Shown one piece after another: positions 52,336 to 64,000 of a stretch of 64,000 bases of DNA. This stretch comes from Escherichia coli. Its GTDB lineage: Bacteria; Pseudomonadota; Gammaproteobacteria; Enterobacterales; Enterobacteriaceae. Each line of letters opens with the position of its first letter. Position 1 is the stretch's first letter. The position numbers and the translations under genes were made by a program. Location: the NCBI RefSeq assembly GCF_044324785.1, contig NZ_CP172127.1; one strand, given 5' to 3'. The notes beneath the pieces were generated by a model. The model saw only the letters and a program-made list of their open reading frames with translations, was not told the origin of the DNA and did no database searches.

Positions 52336-54648
52336 TCAATACAACTCATCAAGTTTTCTCATCGCTTGTTCCCGTATTGCGCGCGTCTTACCGTTAAGCG
52401 CCAGCTGCCGAACTAAATCCAGTTCAGGGTTAACAAGCTCTAACGCCAGCAAAGGATCACGTTTCAGCCTCGCCTTTAATACATCAACTGGAAAACGGGG
52501 ATTATTCATCGCCACAATCCACCACTCGGGATCAATTTCTGCCGCCAGTACTGCAGGCGGTGTGTGGCGGTTGTTAAGTGCGCCGAACTTGAAAAATGTG
52601 AGATTGCTTTTCGCCAGTGTACTCCACCATATACGATCCGGTTGTTTTGCCAGTACATCCAGTTGTGCTAACGCATCGGGGTCTAGTGCATAATAAACAC
52701 GTAACGCTTCGTTAACCTGCGCACGGGAACTGTTTTCCTGCCTCAGAAAAAACTTCGCCCAAATATCATTGCGTGGCATATTTTGCTGTAATTCCTTGAG
52801 GACAACAGCGGGTAAATTATCCCAACTAACTAATGCACTCTCTAAAAAGTCCCAGCCTTCCGAACGTATCAGAGAGGTGGCATTTAATAGCATCTGGTCA
52901 TCAACTTCACCGTGGCTAATCAGCTCAGACAAAATCATATCAGCGCTGGTTTCATATGCATCTGAATCTGCTTTCGGATTATTTTTTCGATGCGATAAAG
53001 CGCGATGCCAAATTTTTTGTTTCATCGCCGTACTCAGATACTGATTTTTCGCCAGATTACTCCACCCCGCAGGATCGTTGAAACGTGTCAATAACCGTTG
53101 TAAAGCAGCGTCAGAGTGAATTACCTGCATATCCCCACAGCAAAAATAGGCAGGAAATTTTTTCTCCATCTTTTTAACAAAATTAAACTGTAAGTTATCT
53201 GGCAATGCTAAAAATAACACACGTATTAGATCATCGTCATTCTCGAATTTTTGGTGTAAATATACTGCTATTTTGTCACTCTCTTGTGGCGTCATCCGCA
53301 ACAATTGACCATGGTGTTTCATCTCTGCCAGCTTTGACGCTAAGCTTGTGACAACATCGTTTGATGAATCGTTCGCCAACTGCATTGCCTGATTGTAGGT
53401 GAGTTGTCCTCCAGCACCGACCTGACGAATAGAGAAATCATCACTGCGGATATAGCCATCAATAATGGATTCGGGCAATAACCACGCATCTTTATAAAGC
53501 TCCTGAATGATCATACCCCAATCTCTTTTCGCCAGAGTCATGACGATATCCAGAGGGAGATTTTCACGTAGCGCAAGATTCAACGGACCGACACCATCAG
53601 GTAGATGACTAATTCGCGTCATTATTTCGACAGAGAGCGGTTCACGGTCGAGCAACCCCAGAACAACAGGCTGGTAACCCAATTGCTGATCGGTCAACTC
53701 CAGAATCTCATTGTCAGGCATATATCTCGCCATACTTGCAATCGTTTGTCCATCATTGCTATTAATAAGTTGTTTGCGTAGGTTAGCTGAAATTCCTTTA
53801 AGCCTTGGGAGAGTTCGCATTATGGCAAGATCAAATGTCGCAATGTCTCGTCCTTCAAATGCAGCAACTTTGCCTTCATCCAGCATTTGTAATTCCTGCA
53901 CTAATTCAGGTGAAGGCTTAGGGCGAAACAGCGCTTCTTTTTTCATCTGATTACAGACATTCCCTGCTATGCGAATATTGCTTCGCTTAAAAATTTCTTT
54001 CAGAGCATCTTCATCATTTATTAGCCCCCAATAATATGCATCAGGATTTATTATCATCAGCGCTTTTTTGACATTTTCAGTGTCATTTTTGTCACTCGCA
54101 CGGACCATGAATTCACTATTTGTCGAAGACGCAACAACAGGTGCAATTATGTCATTGATAAATATCCCACGCGCATTAATACTCCCCTTAATCGTAGACG
54201 GATTATCGTAATATGAGTCGATAAATACCAGTCCACTTGCATTTATCGAACCGGTAATTAACAGTGGTGAATCCGTAACTATATTCGTTGCCGTCACGTT
54301 ACCGAGAATAACCCATGGATTAGAAAGAGAGAAAGTGGAAATATTACCTTTGACTGTCAAATTGCCAAGAACAATCAATTTTTGATTACTCTCTATATTA
54401 CCTTCTACCACTAAATCGCCACGATGCACTTTCCAGTCCGATGCAGATAAACCGAAGGGGACAAGATTCACGCTACTGTTGATAGCTTGTTCAACTTGTT
54501 GTTTATCTTCAGCGGTAGCCGCAGAAAAAAATGGTTCAATATCAACTGCATTTGCAACACATCGAAGTTCCGCCTGTACTGGAAGACTCAGCATAAACAG
54601 GGGAAGTAAACCTATCCAGCTGCAAATCCTGGGCTTAAACATATGCAC
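52336..54648 (-). CDS. ydbD: Large uncharacterised secreted protein YdbD
   Basis: 770-aa ORF with signal peptide; synteny between ynbA and ydbC. Confidence 0.85.
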   Translation of the reverse strand: MHMFKPRICSWIGLLPLFMLSLPVQAELRCVANAVDIEPFFSAATAEDKQQVEQAINSSVNLVPFGLSASDWKVHRGDLVVEGNIESNQKLIVLGNLTVKGNISTFSLSNPWVILGNVTATNIVTDSPLLITGSINASGLVFIDSYYDNPSTIKGSINARGIFINDIIAPVVASSTNSEFMVRASDKNDTENVKKALMIINPDAYYWGLINDEDALKEIFKRSNIRIAGNVCNQMKKEALFRPKPSPELVQELQMLDEGKVAAFEGRDIATFDLAIMRTLPRLKGISANLRKQLINSNDGQTIASMARYMPDNEILELTDQQLGYQPVVLGLLDREPLSVEIMTRISHLPDGVGPLNLALRENLPLDIVMTLAKRDWGMIIQELYKDAWLLPESIIDGYIRSDDFSIRQVGAGGQLTYNQAMQLANDSSNDVVTSLASKLAEMKHHGQLLRMTPQESDKIAVYLHQKFENDDDLIRVLFLALPDNLQFNFVKKMEKKFPAYFCCGDMQVIHSDAALQRLLTRFNDPAGWSNLAKNQYLSTAMKQKIWHRALSHRKNNPKADSDAYETSADMILSELISHGEVDDQMLLNATSLIRSEGWDFLESALVSWDNLPAVVLKELQQNMPRNDIWAKFFLRQENSSRAQVNEALRVYYALDPDALAQLDVLAKQPDRIWWSTLAKSNLTFFKFGALNNRHTPPAVLAAEIDPEWWIVAMNNPRFPVDVLKARLKRDPLLALELVNPELDLVRQLALNGKTRAIREQAMRKLDELY

Positions 54649-54705: not shown

Positions 54706-55566
54706 TTATTCTCGCGAAATACCATCCAACGTAGACAACACTTCCTCAGAAAAATGCAATTTTTCAGCAGCCATATTCTCCCGTAAATGCGCAACAGAAG
54801 ATGTTCCAGGAATCAACAAAATATTCGGTGAACGTTGTAACAGCCACGCCAGCGCCACCTGCATTGGTGTTGCACCCAGGCTCGCTGCTACATCCGAAAG
54901 TGTGGAGGATTGCAGCGGCGTAAAGCCCCCAAGCGGGAAGAACGGCACGTAGGCAATGCCATCGCGGGCCAAATCATCAATCATTGCGTCATCAGCACGA
55001 TGAGCAATGTTGTATTCGTTCTGCACACAGACGATTTCGGTAATCTTACGCGCCTCTGCGACCTGCGTCGGTGTGACGTTGCTCAGGCCAATATGTTTTA
55101 CCAGGCCTTGTTGTTGCATCTCTGTCAGCACGGTCAGGCTGGCTTCAATCGATCCTTCCGCCGGGCCATGACCATCCCCCATCATGACGCGCAGGTTAAC
55201 CACATCCAGTACGTCCAGGCCGAGATTACGTAGATTATCGTGTACCGCTTTTTGCAGCTCTGCCGGAGAAAATGCGGGCAACCAGGAAGCATCCTCACCA
55301 CGCCGTGCACCAATTTTAGTGACAATTGTCAGGTCGTCAGAGTAAGGATGTAGCGCTTCGCGGATAATCTGATTGGTGACGTGCGGACCATAAAAGTCGC
55401 TGGTATCAATGTGATTGACGCCCAATGCCAGCGCCTCGCGCAGCACGGTTATAGCAACGTGGCGATCTCTTGGGGGGCCAAAAACCCCAGGGCCTGCCAG
55501 TTGCATCGCGCCATAACCAAGACGGTTAACGGATTTTGTACCGAGAGTAAATGTGTTGCTGCTCAT
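54706..55566 (-). CDS. ydbC: Aldo-keto reductase
   Basis: 286-aa ORF of the AKR family. Confidence 0.9.
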   Translation of the reverse strand: MSSNTFTLGTKSVNRLGYGAMQLAGPGVFGPPRDRHVAITVLREALALGVNHIDTSDFYGPHVTNQIIREALHPYSDDLTIVTKIGARRGEDASWLPAFSPAELQKAVHDNLRNLGLDVLDVVNLRVMMGDGHGPAEGSIEASLTVLTEMQQQGLVKHIGLSNVTPTQVAEARKITEIVCVQNEYNIAHRADDAMIDDLARDGIAYVPFFPLGGFTPLQSSTLSDVAASLGATPMQVALAWLLQRSPNILLIPGTSSVAHLRENMAAEKLHFSEEVLSTLDGISRE

Positions 55567-55719
55567 CGCACCCTGCCCTGTAATAAAACGGATTAAGAAA
55601 AATCAGTATAGAAACGAAAAGAGATAAATAATGCGAAGGCGTAAACAAGATTACTGGATGAGTTGCTCTATTGTCCTTGAAGACACCAAAACAAAACGCC
55701 TAAAGCATCGCATCCGGCA

Positions 55720-55755
55720 ATAAAAAACCGCAACCTGTATCAGCATTGCGGTTTA
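55720..55755 (-). terminator. Rho-independent terminator downstream of ydbA
   Basis: AACCGCAA…TTGCGGTT hairpin with an A6 flank, giving a U-tract on the minus strand, about 20 nt after the ydbA stop. Confidence 0.55.
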
Positions 55756-55773
55756 GGTATCACATGCTAAAAA

Positions 55774-58700
55774 TTAGAACGTTTTCTTGAAGTTCAGCAT
55801 CACGCCTTTATCGCTGATGCCGTCCTCTTTCCAGTGGTAAGCATCCAGATTCAGCGAACTTTCTTTGCTGCTGTACTTCACGCCGACACTTGCCAGGCTG
55901 TTGATGCCGCCGCCCTTCTGTCCGTCATCGACGTTAAAGTGCTGACTGCCTGCGCCTGCCAGGCTTGCCGTACGCTGGCTCTTCGCGTAGCTCAGGTTCG
56001 GCCCGCCTTCCAGCGTAGCGCTAGCGCTCCAGCCGTCTTTACCTGCATAGTCCAGTTTCAGCCCGACGATGCTGTCCACCGCCGTTTCGCTGCCACTGTT
56101 CATATTCAGGTTAAAGTCTCCGGCATTGCGCTCCTGATAGCCACCTTCCAGTGTGTGACGCAGTTTAACACCCGCATATGGCGTAACCTTCAGTCCTTCG
56201 CTCGGTTCGAAAGTCTTCGCCCCTTCGCTGCGGAACTCCAGGTACTGCTGCTTCACGTCGGTATCAGCCGTTTTGTTTGTGTTGCTAAATGCAATCGAAC
56301 GGCTGCTGTCAAGGTTGTGAACGTCATAACGCAATGCGTTATTCCAGTTCATGCCGTTGTCGAAGGACATCTGATGTTTCAGGCCAAAGAACTGGCTATA
56401 ACCGCCTGTAACGCCATTATCACCCGCTTTCTGCGCACCGTCGCCATCGAGGCGCGCGATACCGTACTCCAGACTCATCGTCTGGCTTTCGCTCAGGTCG
56501 ATGGTTTTACGCAGTGCCAGCATGTCGTACTCGGTATTGTTCCCCAGCTCCGCGCGCGGATCGCCTTTCGCCACCACGTTGAACGCCAGACCGTTACCCA
56601 CTTTCGGTGCGGCATCCGCCAGCATGCTAAAGCGGTTGCTGAGCACACGCGCTTCGCGGAATACCGTGGTCGCCTGGCTACCGCTGACCTGTTTCAGGGC
56701 ACTGTTCAGTTCGGCAGTCGTGCCGACGTTCAGGCTGGTATACAGCTCGTTGTTGGTGTAACCCGCATCCAGTGCTTTCGCGACGTCATTAACCGAAGCA
56801 TCGGTCGCCACATCGGTATAAGCGTTTTTGCTCATAGTGACGTCAACGTTGCCGCTGGCATCGGTACTGCCTTTAGCGTTCCAGACAACTGAAGAGGAAG
56901 TGATATTCTCCGCGCCGCTGATATTTTCACCTTTGAAAACATCATCAATCACCACGGTAGTATCAGCAGTTCCTGCACTAAAGCCAGTATTTACCTTGAC
57001 GTTGTCACTGATAACAAGGTTATTGGCTTTCAAGGTGCCGGAACTTCCGTCGCTATTAGTACCAATAGTGTAATTGGTAAGTTTTTGCTGACTTACAGCA
57101 TTGACTGGTGCCGCAGGAACATTACCTTGCCCAGGCGTCGCAGAAGCGACCGGTACGATTATATCCGCAGTTCCATCCTGACTGTTTCTCGTCCCTGTGG
57201 TATTTGGCGCATAAATCTCGCAACCAATATTACACAACAGGTTGATTATCCCATTATTCACAATCGCTTTAGTGGAACCACCAAACGCCCATGAATTATC
57301 TGCATAAACGTTAATGACACCGTCTTTAGTATTATTAATCGTTGTTGCAGAACCATTTCCTTTGATGCCAATCAGACCTTCACCGTTGCTTCCATCTGCT
57401 TTGCCCTGTTCAGTACCCACGTTAATTGTGCCGCTGTTCACTAACTGAACAGTATAGCTGGTGGTGCCTCCGCTAATAGCAACTGAACCATCACCCTGAA
57501 CATTAATTGTTCCGGCGTTAGCAAAATTATACCCGCGACCTAAATCAATCAGTGGAGCATCTGGATTGATACCATTAATTACACCGTTTTCTGTATTCCA
57601 AATCCATTTGCCGTTGCTGTTAGAGCCTGTGCTGGCAGTTTTAATCGCACTGTAACCGTTTGTAGCGATAATTTTGCCGCGGTTAACCTGTGAAAGAGAA
57701 TCACTGGTGCGTGTGATATTAACGATGGCATTTTCCCCTCCCGCAATAGCATTGCCGCTATTTGTAAGCGTTGAGCCGGCTTCATTATAAAGTACGAAAC
57801 TGCCGTTAATTAAGGCACTACCATCTGTGGCAGTTGTCATCTCCCCCGTATTTACAACGTTTTGTTTATAACTATCACCGCTAATTACACCGCTAAAGCT
57901 TCCCTCATTGAAGAAGGCAGACCCGCCTTTTAACATTAACAGTTCGGTTGTCATACTGCCCGAGGCGCGATTGTAAACACTGGCATTGGCAGTAAGCTTG
58001 TCGACATCCATGCTCCCGCTGTTTTCCAGCCCCTGGACAATATTCAAATCACCATTAACTGTCAGGCTGGCCTTATCCTCGTTATATAACCATAGATTGG
58101 CATCGACATCGCCGTTCAGTATTTCTGTACCATAATTAGCCAGCGGTTTAATGGTAACAAAGCCATCTCGGGTAACTGTTTTGGTAATGTTCTCTCCACT
58201 GGCACTCAATTCAGATAACAGTTCCAGATTCTCTGCAGGAGCACCATAATGAGAGTCGGCGCTATCAATTTCCGCTCCGTTGAGATTAATCTCACCATAG
58301 TTGAGGATAATGCCTGTACCATCATTATAAAACGCCTGGCCCGTATCAACATTAATATTGATTACACCAGTTTGGTCGTTTATTGCCGTAGCACCTTTAT
58401 ACACTGCCATCCCTACCAGCGTATTACTACCCAGGTTTGCATCGTAATCTGCATTTTTCTCGAGGTTAATGATTCCCTGGTTAATAACCATATTACTGTT
58501 ACCGTAGGCGGCCATACCGGCACCTGCGTTATATACAGTAATTACACCACCTTCCAGGTTGGTCGCAATAGCGTTGTTACGAGCGCCACCCCCGGTGTCT
58601 GTCCCGGTTGCCATACCAACGCCATAATCTTTTGCCGTTGCCCCCGGAAGATCGGTACGCAAACTGGTGGTGTCATTGTCATCAATCCATAACGTATCCA

Positions 58701-61700
58701 CCGTAATATTGCCTGCATTATCCGCCGTTGAGTTATCGATGGCTAACATGCCAATGCTACCGCGTCCATACATATCAATGACAGCACCTTCGGCATTGAG
58801 AACAGAGCCTTTATTATACGCCTCCATCCCCATCATGCTTGCTACGCTGTTATTAAACACGCGCTGATCCGTTGACCCCGTGAGTGCAGCCATATTAACA
58901 ACGCTATGTTGCTCCATTACTTTTGAGGTAATTACCCCTTTGTTTACTGCTCTGCCGCCGTTAGAGGTCAAGAAGGCCGTGTTATCTGGTTCCGGTGCTG
59001 GCGTATTAGTTGAGGCATAATCATACAGAGAAAGTGTGATATTCCCGTTATTGATACCTGTGGTATTTTCGCCAAAGATACCAGCAAAGCTGATATTCCA
59101 GATATCAACATTACCGTTATTTATAACCTCAGAGCTACTTTCTGCCTTTATAATCTGTGGTGTTTGTGCATAGTAATGATCATAATTTTCAATATCCCGC
59201 ATATTGAAAGTAGCTTCACTGCCAATCTCAATAGCTGCTTTATTTTTTAACTGGATAAGGCTTGCATATCCTAGTTGCAGATCACCACTGATCGTTGAGT
59301 CACCATTCAGATATATCTTCGATTCACCATCAATACCAATAAGTGGCGTATTACCGAAGAAAGTCCGTTTGTTAGCAATGGCTGAACCATCGGTCAGCGC
59401 ATTTATTTCACCAACAAATGCAATCCCGCCATTCAGATTGATGTTGTTACCATCACCGGAAACAATAAGACCAGAAATATTTTCCTGGCTACCGTCAAAA
59501 TTCGAGACATCACGTGTGGTAGTTTCACCATCCGCAACAAGCGTTAATTTACCATCCAGTGTCACATTGTTATTATGACCACTGACATTTACGCCCACGG
59601 AAGCGTCATAAAAATACTCTGCTGCATTGTCTGCGCTCTGATCTTTATCAACCAGAATATTACCAGTTATATCAATTGTATTGGCATCACCGGAGACGTT
59701 AATACCTGTAGCTTTCTGACCAACGACATTAAGATCCTGCATTGCCATTGTCAGGCTATTATTATCGCCAGTTAATGTCAGCCCTGTTGAAAAATCACCG
59801 ACCTGCATACTTCCCGCGAGGGAGATTTTCCCCTCGTCGCTGGTAATAGCAAATCCCGTCGCTGAATTGCTGACATCCACATCACCGGTATTGGCAAGTG
59901 TCGCGTTGTCGCCATTGATCAGTACACCGATCGAGTCTGCGTCCGTGACGGTCATATTGCCTTTGTTATCGACGGCGGCATTATCGCCAGAAATATCAAT
60001 GCCGTGACCGCCGCCGCTGACATCCAGATCGCCATCCTGGATAACTTTTCCGTTATTGCCGTTGATTTCCGTGCCGGTGGAGTCTTTACCGTCAACGGTG
60101 GTTTTGCCGCTGTTGTTCGCCGTGGCGTCGTCACCGTTAATCTGTGTACCGGTGCCGCCGTTGGTGATGGTGCTCTCGCCTTCGTTGTTAACAACCGCCT
60201 TGTCGCCGTCGATCTGAATACCGATGGACTCCGGATCGGTGACAGTCATGGTACCCTTGTTGTCCACCGTTGCGCTGTCACCGGTAATATCAATCCCGTG
60301 ACCGCCGCCGCTGACGTCCAGATCGCCGTCCTGGATAACTTTTCCGTTATTGCCGTTGATTTCCGTGCCGGTGGAATCTTTACCGTCAACGGTGGTTTTG
60401 CCGCTGTTGTTCGCCGTGGCGTCATCACCGTTAATCTGCGTACCGGTGCCGCCGTTGCTGATGGTGCTGTCGCCTTCGTTGTTAACAACCGCCTTGTCGC
60501 CGTCGATCTGAATACCGATGGACTCCGGATCGGTGACAGTCATGGTACCCTTGTTGTCCACCGTTGCGCTGTCACCGGTAATATCAATCCCGTGACCGCC
60601 GCCGCTGACGTCCAGATCGCCGTCCTGGATAACTTTTCCGTTATTGCCGTTGATTTCCGTGCCGGTGGAATCTTTACCGTCAACGGTGGTTTTGCCGCTG
60701 TTGTTCGCCGTGGCGTCATCACCGTTAATCTGCGTACCGGTGCCGCCGTTGCTGATGGTGCTGTCGCCTTCGTTGTTAACAACCGCCTTGTCGCCGTCGA
60801 TCTGAATACCGATGGACTCCGGATCGGTGACGGTCATGGAGCCCTTGTTATCCACCGTTGAACTGTCACCGGTGATATCAATGCCGTGACCGCCGCCGCT
60901 GACATCCAGATCACCGTCCTGGATAACTTTTCCGTTATTGCCGTTGATTTCCGTGCCGGTGGAATCCTTGCCGTCAACGGTGGTTTTGCCGCTGTTGTTC
61001 GCCGTGGCGTCATCACCGTTAATCTGCGTACCGGTGCCGCCATTGCTGATGGTGCTGTCGCCTTCGTTGTTAACAACAGCCTTGTCGCCGTCGATCTGAA
61101 TACCGATGGACTCCGGATCGGTGACGGTCATGGTGCCCTTGTTATCCACCGTTGAACTGTCACCGGTGATATCAATGCCGTGACCGCCGCCGCTGACATC
61201 CAGATCACCGTCCTGGATAACTTTTCCGTTATTGCCGTTGATTTCCGTGCCGGTGGAATCCTTGCCGTCAACGGTGGTTTTGCCGCTGTTGTTCGCCGTG
61301 GCGTCATCACCGTTAATCTGCGTACCGGTGCCGCCGTTGCTGATGGTGCTGTCGCCTTCGTTGTTAACAACCGCCTTGTCGCCGTCGATCTGAATACCGA
61401 TGGACTCCGGATCGGTGACAGTCATGGTACCCTTGTTGTCCACCGTTGCGCTGTCACCGGTAATATCAATCCCGTGACCGCCGCCGCTGACGTCCAGATC
61501 GCCGTCCTGGATAACTTTTCCGTTATTGCCGTTGATTTCCGTGCCGGTGGAATCTTTACCGTCAACGGTGGTTTTGCCGCTGTTGTTCGCCGTGGCGTCA
61601 TCACCGTTAATCTGCGTACCGGTGCCGCCGTTGCTGATGGTGCTGTCGCCTTCGTTGTTAACAACCGCCTTGTCGCCGTCGATCTGAATACCGATGGACT

Positions 61701-63459
61701 CCGGATCGGTGACGGTCATGGAGCCCTTGTTATCCACCGTTGAACTGTCACCGGTGATATCAATGCCGTGACCGCCGCCGCTGACATCCAGATCACCGTC
61801 CTGGATAACTTTTCCGTTATTGCCGTTGATTTCCGTGCCGGTGGAATCCTTGCCGTCAACGGTGGTTTTGCCGCTGTTGTTCGCCGTGGCGTCATCACCG
61901 TTAATCTGCGTACCGGTGCCGCCATTGCTGATGGTGCTGTCGCCTTCGTTGTTAACAACAGCCTTGTCGCCGTCGATCTGAATACCGATGGACTCCGGAT
62001 CGGTGACGGTCATGGTGCCCTTGTTATCCACCGTTGAACTGTCACCGGTGATATCAATGCCGTGACCGCCGCCGCTGACATCCAGATCACCGTCCTGGAT
62101 AACTTTTCCGTTATTGCCGTTGATTTCCGTGCCGGTGGAATCCTTGCCGTCAACGGTGGTTTTGCCGCTGTTGTTCGCCGTGGCGTCATCACCGTTAATC
62201 TGCGTACCGGTGCCGCCATTGCTGATGGTGCTGTCGCCTTCGTTATTGACAACCGCCTTGTCACCGTCAATCCGGATACCCATGGACTCCGGATCGGTGA
62301 CAGTCATCGTGCCCTTGTTATCCACCGTCGCACTGTCACCGGTGATATCAATCCCGTGACCGCCGCCGCTGACGTCCAGATCGCCGTCCTGGATAACTTT
62401 CCCGTTATTACCGTTGATTTCCGTGCCGGTGGAGTCTTTACCGTCAACGGTGGTTTTGCCGCTGTTGTTCGCCGTGGCGTCGTCACCGTTAATCTGCGTG
62501 CCGGTGCCGCCGTTGCTGATGGTGCTCTCGCCTTCGTTATTGACGATGGCCTTGTCACCGTCAATCCGGATACCCATGGACTCCGGATCGGTGACAGTCA
62601 TGGTGCCCTTGTTATCCACCGTCGCGCTGTCGCCGGTGATATCAATGCCGTGACCGCCGCCGCTGACGTCCAGATCGCCGTCCTGGATAACTTTCCCGTT
62701 ATTACCGTTGATTTCCGTGCCGGTGGAGTCTTTACCGTCAACGGTGGTTTTGCCATTGTTGTTTACTGTGGCATTATCACCCGTAATAACAAGCTCACCG
62801 TTGTGATTGTATTGCCACTTCGTTGCGCCATCTGCGCTCACCCCTTCAAGGGCAACAGTGTTATTTGCTTCATCAATCTGCCAAAGATTAATTGTTGCCT
62901 TACGACCACTGTTATCTTGCAGAGAAATAGTCCCGTCAGCATTCTCGGTATAAGTAAAAACTGAATCGCGAATAGTTAACGTTTTTTCTGTTTTATCGAG
63001 AATAACGTCATTATTAAACGAAATCGGTTTGGAAGGTGTAGGGGTATCATCCGGATCGTCCGGTATTATCTCATCTCCGCCTGGAGTTGGAGGCACTGGA
63101 GTATCGTCTGAATCATCATCGGGTGGTGTCGGCGGTACAGGGGCATTGTTGCGATGATGATGATTACCATCGTCGTTTAGTTCGACGACCGCCAGCGCGG
63201 TGATTAATGCAAAGGCACCAGAGGCAACCCACGGCATAAGGTTTTGCTGTACTTGTGGAGAACATTCGGGAGGTATTTGCTTTAACGCTTCCGGAGTCAG
63301 CATGTCAGGGTCTGCCGGACAAGTCACATTGGTATTTTTCTTTTCGCCTGTGGCCGTTTCTGTCTCTGTAATATCAGCCGCCCACCCCTGACCACTCAGA
63401 GCTAATGCAATACAGGCTGATAATAGGGTTTTCCTTTGCATAATAAATCCTTCTGACAA
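55774..63459 (-). CDS. ydbA: Giant autotransporter adhesin-like protein YdbA, uninterrupted
   Basis: 2561-codon ORF. Signal peptide (MQRKTLLSACIALALSGQGWA; the start may be the internal ATG at 63441), Pro/Asp-rich linker, repetitive passenger domain, and a C-terminal beta-barrel region ending in F. Confidence 0.9.
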   Translation of the reverse strand: MSEGFIMQRKTLLSACIALALSGQGWAADITETETATGEKKNTNVTCPADPDMLTPEALKQIPPECSPQVQQNLMPWVASGAFALITALAVVELNDDGNHHHRNNAPVPPTPPDDDSDDTPVPPTPGGDEIIPDDPDDTPTPSKPISFNNDVILDKTEKTLTIRDSVFTYTENADGTISLQDNSGRKATINLWQIDEANNTVALEGVSADGATKWQYNHNGELVITGDNATVNNNGKTTVDGKDSTGTEINGNNGKVIQDGDLDVSGGGHGIDITGDSATVDNKGTMTVTDPESMGIRIDGDKAIVNNEGESTISNGGTGTQINGDDATANNSGKTTVDGKDSTGTEINGNNGKVIQDGDLDVSGGGHGIDITGDSATVDNKGTMTVTDPESMGIRIDGDKAVVNNEGDSTISNGGTGTQINGDDATANNSGKTTVDGKDSTGTEINGNNGKVIQDGDLDVSGGGHGIDITGDSSTVDNKGTMTVTDPESIGIQIDGDKAVVNNEGDSTISNGGTGTQINGDDATANNSGKTTVDGKDSTGTEINGNNGKVIQDGDLDVSGGGHGIDITGDSSTVDNKGSMTVTDPESIGIQIDGDKAVVNNEGDSTISNGGTGTQINGDDATANNSGKTTVDGKDSTGTEINGNNGKVIQDGDLDVSGGGHGIDITGDSATVDNKGTMTVTDPESIGIQIDGDKAVVNNEGDSTISNGGTGTQINGDDATANNSGKTTVDGKDSTGTEINGNNGKVIQDGDLDVSGGGHGIDITGDSSTVDNKGTMTVTDPESIGIQIDGDKAVVNNEGDSTISNGGTGTQINGDDATANNSGKTTVDGKDSTGTEINGNNGKVIQDGDLDVSGGGHGIDITGDSSTVDNKGSMTVTDPESIGIQIDGDKAVVNNEGDSTISNGGTGTQINGDDATANNSGKTTVDGKDSTGTEINGNNGKVIQDGDLDVSGGGHGIDITGDSATVDNKGTMTVTDPESIGIQIDGDKAVVNNEGDSTISNGGTGTQINGDDATANNSGKTTVDGKDSTGTEINGNNGKVIQDGDLDVSGGGHGIDITGDSATVDNKGTMTVTDPESIGIQIDGDKAVVNNEGESTITNGGTGTQINGDDATANNSGKTTVDGKDSTGTEINGNNGKVIQDGDLDVSGGGHGIDISGDNAAVDNKGNMTVTDADSIGVLINGDNATLANTGDVDVSNSATGFAITSDEGKISLAGSMQVGDFSTGLTLTGDNNSLTMAMQDLNVVGQKATGINVSGDANTIDITGNILVDKDQSADNAAEYFYDASVGVNVSGHNNNVTLDGKLTLVADGETTTRDVSNFDGSQENISGLIVSGDGNNINLNGGIAFVGEINALTDGSAIANKRTFFGNTPLIGIDGESKIYLNGDSTISGDLQLGYASLIQLKNKAAIEIGSEATFNMRDIENYDHYYAQTPQIIKAESSSEVINNGNVDIWNISFAGIFGENTTGINNGNITLSLYDYASTNTPAPEPDNTAFLTSNGGRAVNKGVITSKVMEQHSVVNMAALTGSTDQRVFNNSVASMMGMEAYNKGSVLNAEGAVIDMYGRGSIGMLAIDNSTADNAGNITVDTLWIDDNDTTSLRTDLPGATAKDYGVGMATGTDTGGGARNNAIATNLEGGVITVYNAGAGMAAYGNSNMVINQGIINLEKNADYDANLGSNTLVGMAVYKGATAINDQTGVININVDTGQAFYNDGTGIILNYGEINLNGAEIDSADSHYGAPAENLELLSELSASGENITKTVTRDGFVTIKPLANYGTEILNGDVDANLWLYNEDKASLTVNGDLNIVQGLENSGSMDVDKLTANASVYNRASGSMTTELLMLKGGSAFFNEGSFSGVISGDSYKQNVVNTGEMTTATDGSALINGSFVLYNEAGSTLTNSGNAIAGGENAIVNITRTSDSLSQVNRGKIIATNGYSAIKTASTGSNSNGKWIWNTENGVINGINPDAPLIDLGRGYNFANAGTINVQGDGSVAISGGTTSYTVQLVNSGTINVGTEQGKADGSNGEGLIGIKGNGSATTINNTKDGVINVYADNSWAFGGSTKAIVNNGIINLLCNIGCEIYAPNTTGTRNSQDGTADIIVPVASATPGQGNVPAAPVNAVSQQKLTNYTIGTNSDGSSGTLKANNLVISDNVKVNTGFSAGTADTTVVIDDVFKGENISGAENITSSSVVWNAKGSTDASGNVDVTMSKNAYTDVATDASVNDVAKALDAGYTNNELYTSLNVGTTAELNSALKQVSGSQATTVFREARVLSNRFSMLADAAPKVGNGLAFNVVAKGDPRAELGNNTEYDMLALRKTIDLSESQTMSLEYGIARLDGDGAQKAGDNGVTGGYSQFFGLKHQMSFDNGMNWNNALRYDVHNLDSSRSIAFSNTNKTADTDVKQQYLEFRSEGAKTFEPSEGLKVTPYAGVKLRHTLEGGYQERNAGDFNLNMNSGSETAVDSIVGLKLDYAGKDGWSASATLEGGPNLSYAKSQRTASLAGAGSQHFNVDDGQKGGGINSLASVGVKYSSKESSLNLDAYHWKEDGISDKGVMLNFKKTF
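59900..62760. repeat. Tandem in-frame repeats inside ydbA: about 10 copies of a 294-bp (98-codon) unit
   Basis: Protein unit GKTTVDGKDSTGTEINGNNGKVIQDGDLDVSGGGHGIDITGD…NGGTGTQINGDDATANNS recurs about ten times. Alternate-frame shadow ORFs recur at exactly 294-bp spacing (60246, 60540, 60834, 61128, 61422, 61716, 62010, 62304), several with identical translations. Confidence 0.9.
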
Positions 63460-63924
63460 ATATAAAGAACGCCAGAATTCATAAAGATCATTGAAATCAA
63501 CAACCCTTACAAATATCTGACTGTAAAATATTCAAAAAATATATGATAAGCATTCTATATTGTCAGCAGTACATTATTCAACCTATTTTGTTGATGTTTC
63601 CTAAATATAGATGCGGTGAATGTATAACAACATAAAAACAATATTTATATATGATTAAAAATCTTCTCAAGACAATAATAATTTCGATGTTAAATTCGCA
63701 CAGAGAATATTATTAATGTTGATTATTTGTTGGGGTTATTTATTTGATGAGCAGCAATTCACTAGAGTTGCAAACGCCTCTCTTGTAAGACATTCATCTT
63801 TTCTCAGGAATGCCGATGTAATCGGTGTGCTCCTTTGCAGCAACACGCTGCTCTATGATCTTGTTAACTAATACCCTATTTTTCACCGACTACTACCAAA
63901 TGGTGTTTGAACTACCGTTGCATG

Positions 63925-64000
63925 TTATTTCCGTATCCACATACCATTTATGCCCTGCACGTATTCACCGGGTTTTGCCTTTTCCAACAGCTTCGTCCCT
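63925..64000 (-). CDS. Possible 3' end of a minus-strand CDS running off the right edge; identity unknown
   Basis: Open minus-strand frame over 24 codons (…KLLEKAKPGEYVQGINGMWIRK*) ending at TAA 63925..63927, in sequence with coding-like GC content. Too short to identify. Confidence 0.3.
   Translation of the reverse strand, partial: GTKLLEKAKPGEYVQGINGMWIRK

What the first reader, a model, noticed from the sequence alone, without database searches (positions are those of the whole stretch)
55774..63459. ydbA is an uninterrupted 2561-codon autotransporter gene
In K-12 this gene is recalled as a pseudogene split by IS2 and IS30 insertions. Here one continuous frame encodes signal peptide, Pro/Asp-rich linker, repeat passenger and C-terminal beta-barrel, so this strain may express a functional giant adhesin.
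Basis: partly seen in the sequence, partly recalled or inferred. Interest (0 to 1): 0.45.

Follow-up and report, generated by a model that had tools for sequence, protein, structure and literature searches.

The report
Intact ydbA/upaH autotransporter gene
This E. coli strain carries an unbroken copy of the giant surface-protein gene that is wrecked by insertion elements in K-12, but unbroken copies are common, this exact protein is already in RefSeq, and the gene is the already-studied biofilm factor UpaH, so the finding is real but ordinary.

Summary
The ORF is real. It lies on the minus strand at 55774..63459 with no internal stop. The likely start is the ATG at 63441, preceded by an AAGGA ribosome-binding site, which gives 2555 codons rather than 2561. 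It sits at the ydbA position (ydbL | gene | pdxI | ydbD). K-12 ydbA is confirmed as a pseudogene split by IS2D and IS30C.

The product has a signal peptide, Pro/Asp-rich linker, BigA_N domain, ten 98-aa tandem repeats, further beta-helix, BigA_beta domain, helix and 12-strand barrel. Predicted structures match autotransporter translocators and parallel beta-helices.

It is not new. The identical protein is RefSeq WP_395765644.1. Intact homologues of 1673-3161 aa are abundant, and one paper reports full-length copies in about 42% of phylogroup A. Published upaH primers match exactly inside the CFT073 gene at this locus, so ydbA is upaH, a characterised, H-NS-repressed biofilm and colonisation autotransporter.

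Particular to this allele:
- A high repeat count that includes a perfect 882-bp duplication.
- A divergent AT-rich upstream region found in only two other complete E. coli genomes.

Expression is untested. Interest is low.

The parts
55774..63441 (-). ydbA/upaH coding sequence, 2555 codons plus TAA stop. The mature protein is about 259 kDa with pI about 4.1.
   Evidence: The product is identical to RefSeq WP_395765644.1.
63442..63459 (-). Six extra codons (TTG..) of the mechanical ORF. They are probably not translated and contain the AAGGA ribosome-binding site (63452..63448).
   Evidence: All homologues start at MQRKTLL.
63379..63441 (-). Sec-type signal peptide, aa 1-21 (MQRK n-region, hydrophobic core, GWA|A cleavage-type site).
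   Evidence: Read from the sequence. It is conserved across the family. No signal-peptide predictor was available.
63178..63240 (-). Conserved Gly/Ala-rich hydrophobic segment, aa 68-88. It is preceded by two conserved Cys (C41, C60). Its role is unexplained.
   Evidence: It is the most hydrophobic 19-aa window in the protein (Kyte-Doolittle score (KD) 1.99, against 1.34 for the signal peptide). It is conserved in 15 divergent family members.
63025..63177 (-). His/Asp/Asn-rich run followed by the Pro/Asp-rich linker, aa 89-139. Its length varies across the family as (PPDDGG)n-like repeats.
62782..63024 (-). BigA_N domain (Pfam PF25784), aa 140-220.
   Evidence: E = 3.1e-32. It is modelled as an all-beta domain with pLDDT 83-92.
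59842..62781 (-). Tandem array of ten 294-bp (98-aa) units. The last unit is degenerate. Each unit is modelled as four beta-helix coils of about 24.5 aa.
   Evidence: TRF: 9.8 copies, 95% matches. Unit table. AF2 model pLDDT 95.8.
60430..62193 (-). Perfect 882-bp direct duplication. Units 3-5 (62193..61312) are identical to units 6-8 (61311..60430) with 0 differences.
57076..59841 (-). Non-repetitive part of the passenger, aa 1201-2122. This is the most variable region between alleles. The points equivalent to the K-12 IS2D and IS30C insertions lie at about 59160 and 59110 (approximate).
   Evidence: Identity to K-12 is 29-79% and to CFT073 50-80% in 150-aa windows.
57839..57843 (-). G5 run (coordinates accurate to a base or two). 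The closest genome, strain N3, has G4 here and is therefore annotated as frameshifted.
56821..57075 (-). BigA_beta sandwich domain (Pfam PF25783), aa 2123-2207.
   Evidence: E = 3.2e-27. Beta strands in the AF2 model.
56611..56679 (-). Long alpha-helix, aa about 2255-2277, predicted to occupy the barrel pore.
   Evidence: Helix at residues 160-182 of the 460-aa AF2 model. Its position in the pore is inferred from the solved structures that match.
55777..56589 (-). C-terminal outer-membrane beta-barrel (translocator), aa about 2285-2555, ending in ...KKTF.
   Evidence: Pfam PF03797 E = 2.6e-18. The model has about 12 strands. Foldseek top hits are EstA, AaaA, NalP, EspP and BrkA.
55719..55754 (-). 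Intrinsic-terminator-like hairpin (AAACCGCAA...UUGCGGUUU followed by UUUUAUU), about 20 nt after the stop codon.
   Evidence: Fold -21.7 kcal/mol, z = -2.3. The consensus scan missed it because the loop is long.
63442..63924 (-). 483-bp AT-rich (about 28-32% GC) ydbL-ydbA intergenic region. This is a lineage-restricted version of the upstream region.
   Evidence: GC content. Found in only 2 of 5426 complete E. coli genomes. 83.5% identical to the Escherichia sp. E4694 locus.
63538..63566 (-). Best sigma-70-like match (CTGACA-17-TATATT, 10 of 12), ending 97 nt upstream of the ATG. It is a candidate promoter only.
   Evidence: The 15 matches in the region do not exceed the shuffles (11.6 +/- 4.0).

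Best explanation
The feature is an intact allele of the E. coli ydbA locus. This is the same locus whose CFT073 allele has been characterised under the name upaH. It encodes a 2555-aa classical (type Va) autotransporter of the BigA/YdbA family.

Inferred mechanism. These steps come from the established autotransporter pathway and were not tested here:
- The Sec signal peptide takes the precursor to the periplasm.
- The C-terminal roughly 270 residues are inserted by BAM as a 12-stranded outer-membrane barrel, with an alpha-helix in its pore.
- The roughly 2200-residue acidic passenger is threaded out and folds into a long right-handed beta-helix.
- Within that beta-helix, each 98-aa repeat adds four coils.

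Unequal recombination between the near-identical 294-bp units changes passenger length between strains. By homology with UpaH, the exposed beta-helix would promote biofilm formation and binding to extracellular matrix, and transcription would probably be silenced by H-NS under laboratory conditions.

The ORF, the domain architecture, the predicted folds, the orthology with K-12 ydbA and the equivalence of the locus with upaH are shown. Export, surface display, function and expression in this strain are inferred.
For: Intact frame and start.

Synteny. The order ydbL | gene | pdxI | ydbD is the same in N3, 19KM1831, CFT073, SE15 and Escherichia sp. E4694. K-12 and ST2747 have the fea/paa island in between.

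K-12 comparison. The IS2D and IS30C interruption is confirmed, the joined fragments give an open 2020-aa frame, and identity is 82-96% at the N-terminus and 99% in the barrel.

Domains:
- BigA_N, E = 3e-32; BigA_beta, E = 3e-27; Autotransporter PF03797, E = 3e-18.
- NCBIfam auto_BigA aligned over profile positions 374-1874 of 1875.

Structure:
- The C-terminal model (pLDDT 76) has a long helix plus about 12 strands. Its best PDB matches are autotransporter translocators: EstA 1e-9, AaaA, NalP (TM 0.65 on the target), EspP-BAM complexes and BrkA.
- The passenger model (pLDDT 95.8, pTM 0.90) is a regular three-strand solenoid. Its PDB matches are weak, but all are parallel beta-helices, including the passengers of TibA, Fap2, Vag8, Ag43, pertactin and Hbp.

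Repeat-number polymorphism:
- Lengths in the 90% identity cluster fit 1575 + 98n, with n = 1-10.
- The unit occurs 1-11 times per genome.
- SE15 has 14.5 units.
- Arrays differ even between close relatives.

Equivalence with upaH:
- Both upaH primers designed on GenBank FJ719778.1 (PMC11658850) match exactly inside the CFT073 gene that lies between ydbL and pdxI.
- That gene's product is 64% identical to the window protein over 100% of its length.

UpaH literature:
- Largest AIDA-I-type autotransporter; biofilm formation and bladder colonisation; passenger variants (PMC12525524).
- Binds extracellular matrix (PMC9289746).
- Surface-expressed; its repeats were misassembled in the first CFT073 genome (PMC5595812; PMC3419190).
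- Repressed by H-NS (PMC5012682).
Against: - Nothing here shows transcription, export or function in this strain.
- The upstream region is not the one shared by K-12 and CFT073, which are 81% identical over 321 bp. It is a divergent version seen in only two other complete E. coli genomes. Regulation known for CFT073 upaH may therefore not transfer.
- The central passenger is only 45-80% identical to CFT073 UpaH, and UpaH variants are reported to differ in function.
- The protein scores below NCBI's cut-off for Salmonella BigA (2081 against 3400 bits).
- The TM-like hydrophobic segment after the signal peptide does not fit the simple export scheme.
- The link between upaH and ydbA rests on exact primer matches and synteny. 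FJ719778.1 itself was not aligned, and no paper in the library states the equivalence.
Confidence: 0.88

Rival explanations
1. The frame is intact but the gene is cryptic in this strain. It is not transcribed at useful levels, either because H-NS silences the AT-rich upstream DNA or because the divergent upstream region lacks an active promoter. On this reading the ORF is a not-yet-decayed copy at a locus that is often lost.
For: - The upstream intergenic region is about 28-32% GC.
- upaH is reported as H-NS-repressed.
- Promoter-like matches are no more frequent than in shuffled sequence.
- The upstream version is rare.
- The locus is broken in many strains by different events: IS2 and IS30 in K-12, a 1-bp deletion in N3, a frameshift with IS1 upstream in CFIAFB20180511, and two CDSs in O157:H7.
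Against: - A 7.7-kb frame with a 2.9-kb recombinogenic array would not stay open for long without selection.
- Intact copies occur in several distinct allele classes and in another Escherichia species.
- The best sigma-70-like match lies at a sensible distance from the ATG.
- H-NS silencing is conditional, not a loss of function.
Confidence: 0.3
2. The repeat region is partly an assembly artefact. On this reading the count of ten units and the perfect 882-bp duplication do not reflect the real chromosome, and the true gene may be shorter, longer or frameshifted.
For: - Units 3-5 and 6-8 are identical over 882 bp.
- The same gene was misassembled in the first CFT073 genome.
- Short forms of 1673 aa, with one repeat unit, are very common among draft assemblies.
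- CFT073 gives 2555 aa in one draft. I recall 2845 aa for the cloned upaH gene, but this is from memory and not verified.
Against: - The frame is open through the whole array.
- The flanking units differ from one another in an ordered way.
- The record is a 5.48-Mb contig, that is a closed chromosome.
- Related complete genomes carry 8, 11 and 14.5 units.
- A miscount of whole 294-bp units would not change the reading frame.
Confidence: 0.1
3. The protein is exported, but its role is not adhesion to host cells. It could instead act mainly in biofilm matrix or cell-surface architecture, or as a variable surface antigen.
For: - A review states that UpaH does not promote aggregation or adherence to bladder epithelial cells but strongly affects biofilm formation.
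- Salmonella BigA is still only a candidate adhesin.
- The passenger is highly variable between alleles.
Against: - Another review groups UpaH with adhesins that bind host extracellular matrix.
- The beta-helix passenger is the common scaffold of AIDA-I-type adhesins.
Confidence: 0.3

Closest known systems
UpaH of uropathogenic E. coli CFT073 (GenBank FJ719778.1 / ACX47353.1)
   Same: - Same chromosomal locus, between ydbL and pdxI.
- Same Pfam architecture: BigA_N, BigA_3rd, BigA_4th, BigA_beta, then the barrel.
- 64% identity over the full length.
- A tandem-repeat beta-helix passenger.
   Different: - The central passenger is only 50-80% identical.
- The CFT073 repeat is a 441-bp super-unit, against 294 bp here.
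- The upstream region differs beyond about 30 bp from the ATG.
- The published upaH primers do not match this allele.
ydbA (b4492) pseudogene of E. coli K-12 MG1655
   Same: - Orthologous position next to pdxI.
- N-terminus 82-96% identical and barrel 99% identical.
- Same 294-bp repeat unit.
   Different: - K-12 is split by IS2D and IS30C.
- It has 3 full units rather than 10, giving 2020 aa when rejoined.
- Its mid-passenger is 29-79% identical.
- It is preceded by the fea/paa island and ynbG.
BigA, the Salmonella enterica autotransporter (NCBIfam NF033178)
   Same: - Alignment over profile positions 374-1874 of 1875.
- Shared BigA_N and BigA_beta domains.
- Shared N-terminal module.
   Different: - The score of 2081 bits is below the curated 3400-bit cut-off, so this is a homologue and not BigA itself.
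- BigA function is still uncharacterised.
AIDA-I-type self-associating autotransporters (AIDA-I, Ag43, TibA)
   Same: - Type Va organisation with a beta-helix passenger.
- The literature calls the BigA and UpaH passengers AIDA-I-like.
- TibA and Ag43 appear among the fold matches.
   Different: - The fold matches are weak (E >= 5e-3, TM 0.15-0.4).
- Coils are about 24.5 aa long. I recall 19-aa coils for AIDA-I-type repeats, but this is from memory and was not checked here.
- The barrel was grouped with NalP-type barrels rather than the AIDA-I/Ag43 barrel.
- The BigA_N and BigA_beta domains and the N-terminal hydrophobic module were not found described for those proteins in the sources read here.
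NalP / EstA / EspP translocator domains (solved structures 1UYN, 3KVN, 3SLO, 8BNZ)
   Same: They are the best structural matches of the C-terminal model, which has a 12-strand barrel with a preceding helix.
   Different: - No detectable sequence similarity to any PDB chain.
- Sequence identity in the structural alignments is 13-16%.
- The passengers are unrelated: protease or esterase there, repeat beta-helix here.

Membership tests
Classical (type Va) autotransporter | N-terminal Sec signal peptide | tested here: met
   MQRK n-region, hydrophobic core and a GWA|A site are read from the sequence. The segment is conserved in 15 relatives. This is by inspection only, because no predictor was available.
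Classical (type Va) autotransporter | C-terminal autotransporter beta-domain: a 12-strand barrel with an alpha-helix linker | tested here: met
   Pfam PF03797 E = 2.6e-18. The AF2 model has a helix plus about 12 strands. Foldseek top hits are EstA, AaaA, NalP, EspP and BrkA.
Classical (type Va) autotransporter | C-terminal aromatic residue (beta-signal for BAM) | tested here: met
   The protein ends ...NFKKTF. A terminal F, or FR in some members, is conserved in relatives.
Classical (type Va) autotransporter | Passenger between signal peptide and barrel, typically a right-handed beta-helix | tested here: met
   The AF2 model of aa 135-534 (pLDDT 95.8) is a regular three-strand solenoid. All fold matches are parallel beta-helices, though weak.
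Classical (type Va) autotransporter | Passenger actually translocated to the cell surface | not testable with these tools
   This needs protease shaving or immunofluorescence. It is reported for the CFT073 allele.
BigA/YdbA family | BigA_N domain (PF25784) | tested here: met
   E = 3.1e-32, aa 140-220, covering 80 of 80 model positions.
BigA/YdbA family | BigA_beta domain (PF25783) before the barrel | tested here: met
   E = 3.2e-27, aa 2123-2207.
BigA/YdbA family | BigA_3rd (PF27417) and BigA_4th (PF27415) domains | not tested
   These families are not in the Pfam copy searched here. They are precomputed on every close homologue, but not on this exact sequence.
Salmonella BigA proper (NCBIfam NF033178 auto_BigA) | Whole-protein score above the curated cut-off of 3400 bits | tested here: not met
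   The score is 2081 bits. This is a homologue, not the Salmonella protein.
ydbA orthologue | Same chromosomal position as K-12 b4492 | tested here: met
   pdxI and ydbD lie immediately downstream. On the upstream side, K-12 has the fea/paa island between ydbL and ydbA, and here it is absent.
ydbA orthologue | Sequence collinear with the three K-12 fragments | tested here: met
   blastp covers K-12 1-676 and 219-2020. Identity by segment is 82-96%, then 29-79%, then 99%.
upaH allele | Same locus as the cloned CFT073 upaH gene | tested here: met
   Both published upaH primers match exactly in the CFT073 gene between ydbL and pdxI. FJ719778.1 itself was not available for alignment.
upaH allele | UpaH phenotypes (biofilm, ECM binding, H-NS repression) | not testable with these tools
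   Known from the literature only, for other alleles.

The most novel reading that the evidence does not exclude
The whole BigA/YdbA(UpaH) family shares an N-terminal module: a signal peptide, a pair of conserved cysteines, a TM-like Gly/Ala-rich hydrophobic segment that is more hydrophobic than the signal peptide itself, a His/Asp-rich run, and a Pro/Asp linker of variable length. This module could be an uncharacterised tether or anchor that changes how these giant passengers are secreted or held on the cell. If so, the family would not be a plain type Va system. Separately, this lineage's divergent upstream region, which resembles that of a non-coli Escherichia, could give the gene a different expression programme from CFT073 upaH.
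Probability: 0.12. Interest if true: 0.45.

Novelty: already known. Interest (0 to 1): 0.1.

Why it matters
It matters little as a discovery. The exact protein is in RefSeq, intact alleles are widespread, and the CFT073 allele of the locus has been studied since 2010 as UpaH.

Three things are useful by-products:
- The explicit link ydbA = upaH, which no paper in the searched library states.
- Published upaH primers do not match this allele class, so PCR surveys would undercount the gene.
- Many RefSeq and GenBank records name these proteins 'EntS/YbdA MFS transporter', a confusion of ydbA with ybdA.

For this strain, the practical point is that it has the coding capacity for a roughly 260-kDa surface beta-helix protein with an unusually long repeat stalk.

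Tried and rejected
- **Sequence search of the PDB.** The C-terminal 460 aa gave no match at E <= 1, and the N-terminal 220 aa gave only chance hits.
- **Rfam on 55000..64000.** No match.
- **Source contig of the exact protein.** Not on record.
- **Upstream region in GTDB species representatives.** Two exact-pattern scans, each with a motif from the upstream region, found nothing. The related Escherichia sp. E4694 locus was found through its protein instead.
- **Lipoprotein idea (LSAC at aa 7-10).** Rejected, because Cys10 leaves an h-region of only about 5 residues and a normal GWA|A site follows.
- **The second hydrophobic segment as the true signal peptide, with a start at Met69.** Rejected. 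It has no positive n-region, Met69 is not conserved, and RefSeq and all homologues use MQRK.
- **'Exceptionally long allele'.** Rejected. 2698-2700-aa forms are common, and SE15 has 3161 aa with 14.5 units.
- **'Upstream DNA unrelated to other E. coli'.** Softened. blastn finds it in only two other genomes. A MAFFT alignment shows weak residual similarity to the K-12/CFT073 upstream region around the promoter-like element. The region is also 83.5% identical to the Escherichia sp. E4694 locus.
- **Primary UpaH papers (PMC2849410, PMC3486098).** Not held in the library. Details I recall from them are from memory and marked as such: an 8.535-kb gene, a 'hydrophobic region' and a 'conserved region' in the passenger, and H-NS repression. 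Only the H-NS point and the misassembly are confirmed through citing papers.
- **Antisense and out-of-frame ORFs inside the gene.** These are by-products of the repeat and were ignored.
Full report
**Observation**

The window holds one open frame on the minus strand from 63459 to 55774 (2561 codons from a TTG), and its translation has no internal stop. The TTG is only the first start-type codon after the upstream stop. Six codons downstream lies an ATG at 63441, preceded by AAGGA at a 6-nt spacing. From that ATG the product is 2555 aa. It is identical, residue for residue, to RefSeq WP_395765644.1 / GenBank XJR02741.1, an 'autotransporter domain-containing protein' on a 5.48-Mb E. coli contig. 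All homologues, including K-12, begin MQRKTLL.

**Which gene it is**

Downstream on the same strand are pdxI (54706..55566) and ydbD (52336..54648). Upstream, the window ends inside ydbL.

In K-12 MG1655, ydbA (b4492) lies directly upstream of pdxI. Joining the three fragments gives a 2020-aa frame with no stop.

Identity of the window protein to that reconstruction, by region:

| Window aa | Identity to K-12 |
|---|---|
| 1-110 | 82% |
| 111-220 | 96% |
| 2251-2550 | 99% |
| middle of the passenger | 29-79% |

The points equivalent to the K-12 IS insertions fall near window 59160 and 59110, and the window is continuous there. K-12 carries the fea/tynA/paa island between ydbL and ydbA. The window does not, and neither do strains N3, 19KM1831, CFT073, SE15 and Escherichia sp. 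E4694.

The window genome is E. coli. A flanking 25 kb is 97.7% identical to most complete genomes and 99.2% identical to strain N3.

**Anatomy**

- **Signal peptide and N-terminal module.** A Sec-type signal peptide covers aa 1-21. About 45 residues with two conserved cysteines follow. Next is a hydrophobic Gly/Ala-rich segment (aa 68-88), then a His/Asp-rich run and a Pro/Asp-rich linker up to aa 139.
- **BigA_N.** Pfam places it at aa 140-220 (E = 3e-32).
- **Repeats.** Ten 98-aa units follow, encoded at 62781..59842. TRF reports a 294-bp period, 9.8 copies and 95% matches.
- **Rest of the passenger.** About 920 residues of non-repetitive passenger follow the repeats.
- **BigA_beta.** aa 2123-2207 (E = 3e-27).
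- **Autotransporter beta-domain.** aa 2329-2526 (PF03797, E = 3e-18). The protein ends in ...KKTF.
- **Terminator.** A hairpin with a U-tract lies about 20 nt past the stop codon.

**Fold tests**

An AlphaFold2 model of the last 460 residues was built on a 14-sequence alignment (mean pLDDT 76). It shows a small beta-sandwich, a 23-residue helix and about twelve long strands. Its best PDB matches are the translocators of EstA, AaaA, NalP (TM 0.65 normalised on NalP), EspP (including BAM-EspP complexes), BrkA and Hbp.

A model of aa 135-534 (pLDDT 95.8, pTM 0.90) is a perfectly regular solenoid with three strands per coil of about 24.5 residues, so each 98-aa unit gives four coils. Its PDB matches are weak (E >= 3e-3). 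All are right-handed parallel beta-helices, and they include the passengers of TibA, Fap2, Vag8, Ag43, pertactin and Hbp.

The defining features of a classical type Va autotransporter that sequence can address are therefore met. Export itself cannot be tested here.

**Family**

NCBIfam's auto_BigA model aligns over almost its whole length but scores 2081 bits against a cut-off of 3400. The protein is thus a homologue of Salmonella BigA, not BigA itself. Celik et al. described BigA as having an AIDA-I-like passenger on a NalP-type barrel (PMC3419190). BigA is still only a candidate adhesin.

**The gene is upaH**

A search of 5.8 billion proteins returned over a thousand relatives. The best 120 are all from Escherichia, nearly all E. 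coli, and 1844-2700 aa long. One of them is a 2555-aa protein from CFT073, 64% identical over the whole query.

The contig that encodes this CFT073 protein has the order ydbH-ynbE-ydbL | gene | pdxI-azoR-hrpA. The two upaH primers published with GenBank FJ719778.1 as their source (PMC11658850) match exactly inside that gene, 665 bp apart. They do not match the window allele or the other fetched loci.

The ydbA locus is therefore the upaH locus. No paper in the searched library mentions both names. What the literature reports on UpaH:

- It is the largest AIDA-I-type autotransporter of E. coli.
- It binds extracellular matrix proteins (PMC9289746).
- It is surface-expressed, and its repeats were misassembled in the first CFT073 genome (PMC5595812; PMC3419190).
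- It is repressed by H-NS (PMC5012682).

The primary papers are not held. From memory only, they also describe a 'hydrophobic region' in the passenger whose deletion reduced biofilm formation. That region may be the segment at aa 68-88.

**How ordinary an intact copy is**

The 90% identity cluster of this protein has 1070 members. Their lengths fit 1575 + 98n (1673, 2065, 2163, 2261, 2555 aa).

States of the locus in the sampled genomes:

| Strain | State |
|---|---|
| 19KM1831 | intact, 2359 aa |
| ST2747 | intact, 2163 aa |
| SE15 | intact, 3161 aa |
| K-12 | broken by IS2D and IS30C |
| N3 | frameshifted |
| CFIAFB20180511 | frameshifted, with IS1 just upstream |
| O157:H7 | split into two CDSs |

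Goldstone et al. reported full-length versions in about 42% of phylogroup A genomes (PMC4951805). Being uninterrupted is common.

**What is particular to this allele**

*Repeat number.* The 294-bp unit occurs 1-11 times per genome (median 3) among the 2371 complete genomes where megablast detects it. The window's ten is near the top of that range. SE15 has 14.5 units of a more divergent type.

*A perfect duplication.* Units 3-5 and 6-8 are identical over 882 bp. This points to a very recent unequal crossover or, less likely, an assembly artefact. Arrays differ unit by unit even between the window and its closest relatives, so the array turns over quickly.

*The closest genome is broken.* N3 is 99.2% identical outside the array. 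It has eleven units and one G missing from a G5 run at about 57843, which is why it is annotated as frameshifted. Whether that is a real mutation or a sequencing error cannot be decided here.

*A rare upstream region.*

- The 483-bp region upstream of the ATG is about 28-32% GC.
- Even with sensitive blastn, it is found in only two of 5426 complete E. coli genomes, N3 and 19KM1831.
- K-12 and CFT073 share 81% identity over 321 bp upstream of the gene. Clear similarity between the window and either of them stops about 30 bp before the ATG.
- The window version is 83.5% identical to the corresponding region of Escherichia sp. E4694, whose protein is also 99% identical over aa 1-110.
- The 5' end of the locus is thus an old, divergent haplotype shared with a non-coli Escherichia.
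- Two exact-pattern scans of GTDB species representatives, each with a motif from this region, found nothing.

**Promoter**

The best sigma-70-like match in the region is CTGACA-17-TATATT at 63566..63538, which ends 97 nt upstream of the ATG. The number of such matches is not above that in shuffled sequence. In a MAFFT alignment this element lines up with a weaker CTGGCA...TGTTTT in K-12 and CFT073, but alignments of AT-rich DNA are unreliable. H-NS silencing is the expectation by analogy with upaH.

**Unexplained**

The hydrophobic segment at aa 68-88 is the most hydrophobic 19-residue window of the whole protein (KD 1.99, against 1.34 for the signal peptide). Its character is conserved in 15 divergent family members, as are the two cysteines before it and the variable Pro/Asp linker after it. 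A TM-like segment just after a cleavable signal peptide is awkward for a passenger that must cross two membranes. I have no tested explanation.

**Verdict**

The finding is a correct reading of the sequence, and it is ordinary. The gene is an intact ydbA/upaH allele that encodes a BigA/YdbA-family type Va autotransporter. It is already present in RefSeq and belongs to a studied protein. Novelty: already known. Interest: low.

Noticed in passing
Related proteins, for example P0008-P0010, the CFT073 protein P0033 and the UTI89 hit H127: Hundreds of YdbA/UpaH homologues in NCBI records are named 'EntS/YbdA MFS transporter'. This looks like a confusion of ydbA with ybdA, since these are 2300-2700-aa autotransporters and not MFS transporters.
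   Followed up: partly
window 63178..63240 (aa 68-88) and the family alignment: There is a conserved TM-like Gly/Ala-rich hydrophobic segment, more hydrophobic than the signal peptide, downstream of two conserved cysteines. It is present throughout the BigA/YdbA family. It is topologically awkward for a type Va passenger and remains unexplained.
   Followed up: partly
window 63442..63924, and locus L011 2514..3000: The upstream intergenic region is a rare haplotype, seen in only N3 and 19KM1831 among 5426 complete E. coli genomes. It is 83.5% identical to Escherichia sp. E4694. The last roughly 76 nt of ydbL also diverge from K-12.
   Followed up: yes
window 63925..64000, compared with K-12 L005 and L002: The fea/tynA/paa (phenylacetate) island that separates ydbL from ydbA in K-12 is absent here. 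It is also absent in N3, 19KM1831, CFT073, SE15 and Escherichia sp. E4694.
   Followed up: partly
L003 (strain N3), equivalent to window ~57843: The closest genome has a single G missing from a G5 run, and this is the only reason its copy is annotated as frameshifted. It could be a sequencing error or a real inactivation.
   Followed up: partly
L010 (CFT073) 7108 and 7753-7772, compared with the window: The published upaH PCR primers lie in the most variable part of the passenger. They do not match the window, K-12-type or SE15 alleles even with 3 mismatches allowed, so PCR surveys with them would miss these allele classes.
   Followed up: yes
L007 (SE15) 71..9556: The SE15 allele is 3161 aa with 14.5 copies of the 294-bp unit. 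It is annotated only as 'hypothetical protein', and it is larger than the window allele.
   Followed up: partly
L008 (O157:H7) 1..5110 and L006 (CFIAFB20180511) 1785..9166: The locus has decayed independently in other strains. In O157:H7 it is split into a 'proline-rich domain' CDS and an 819-aa barrel CDS. CFIAFB20180511 has a frameshifted copy with IS1 directly upstream. ydbD is also frameshifted in that assembly, which hints at assembly errors.
   Followed up: no
window 60430..62193: There is an exact 882-bp tandem duplication (units 3-5 = units 6-8) inside the coding repeat array.
   Followed up: yes
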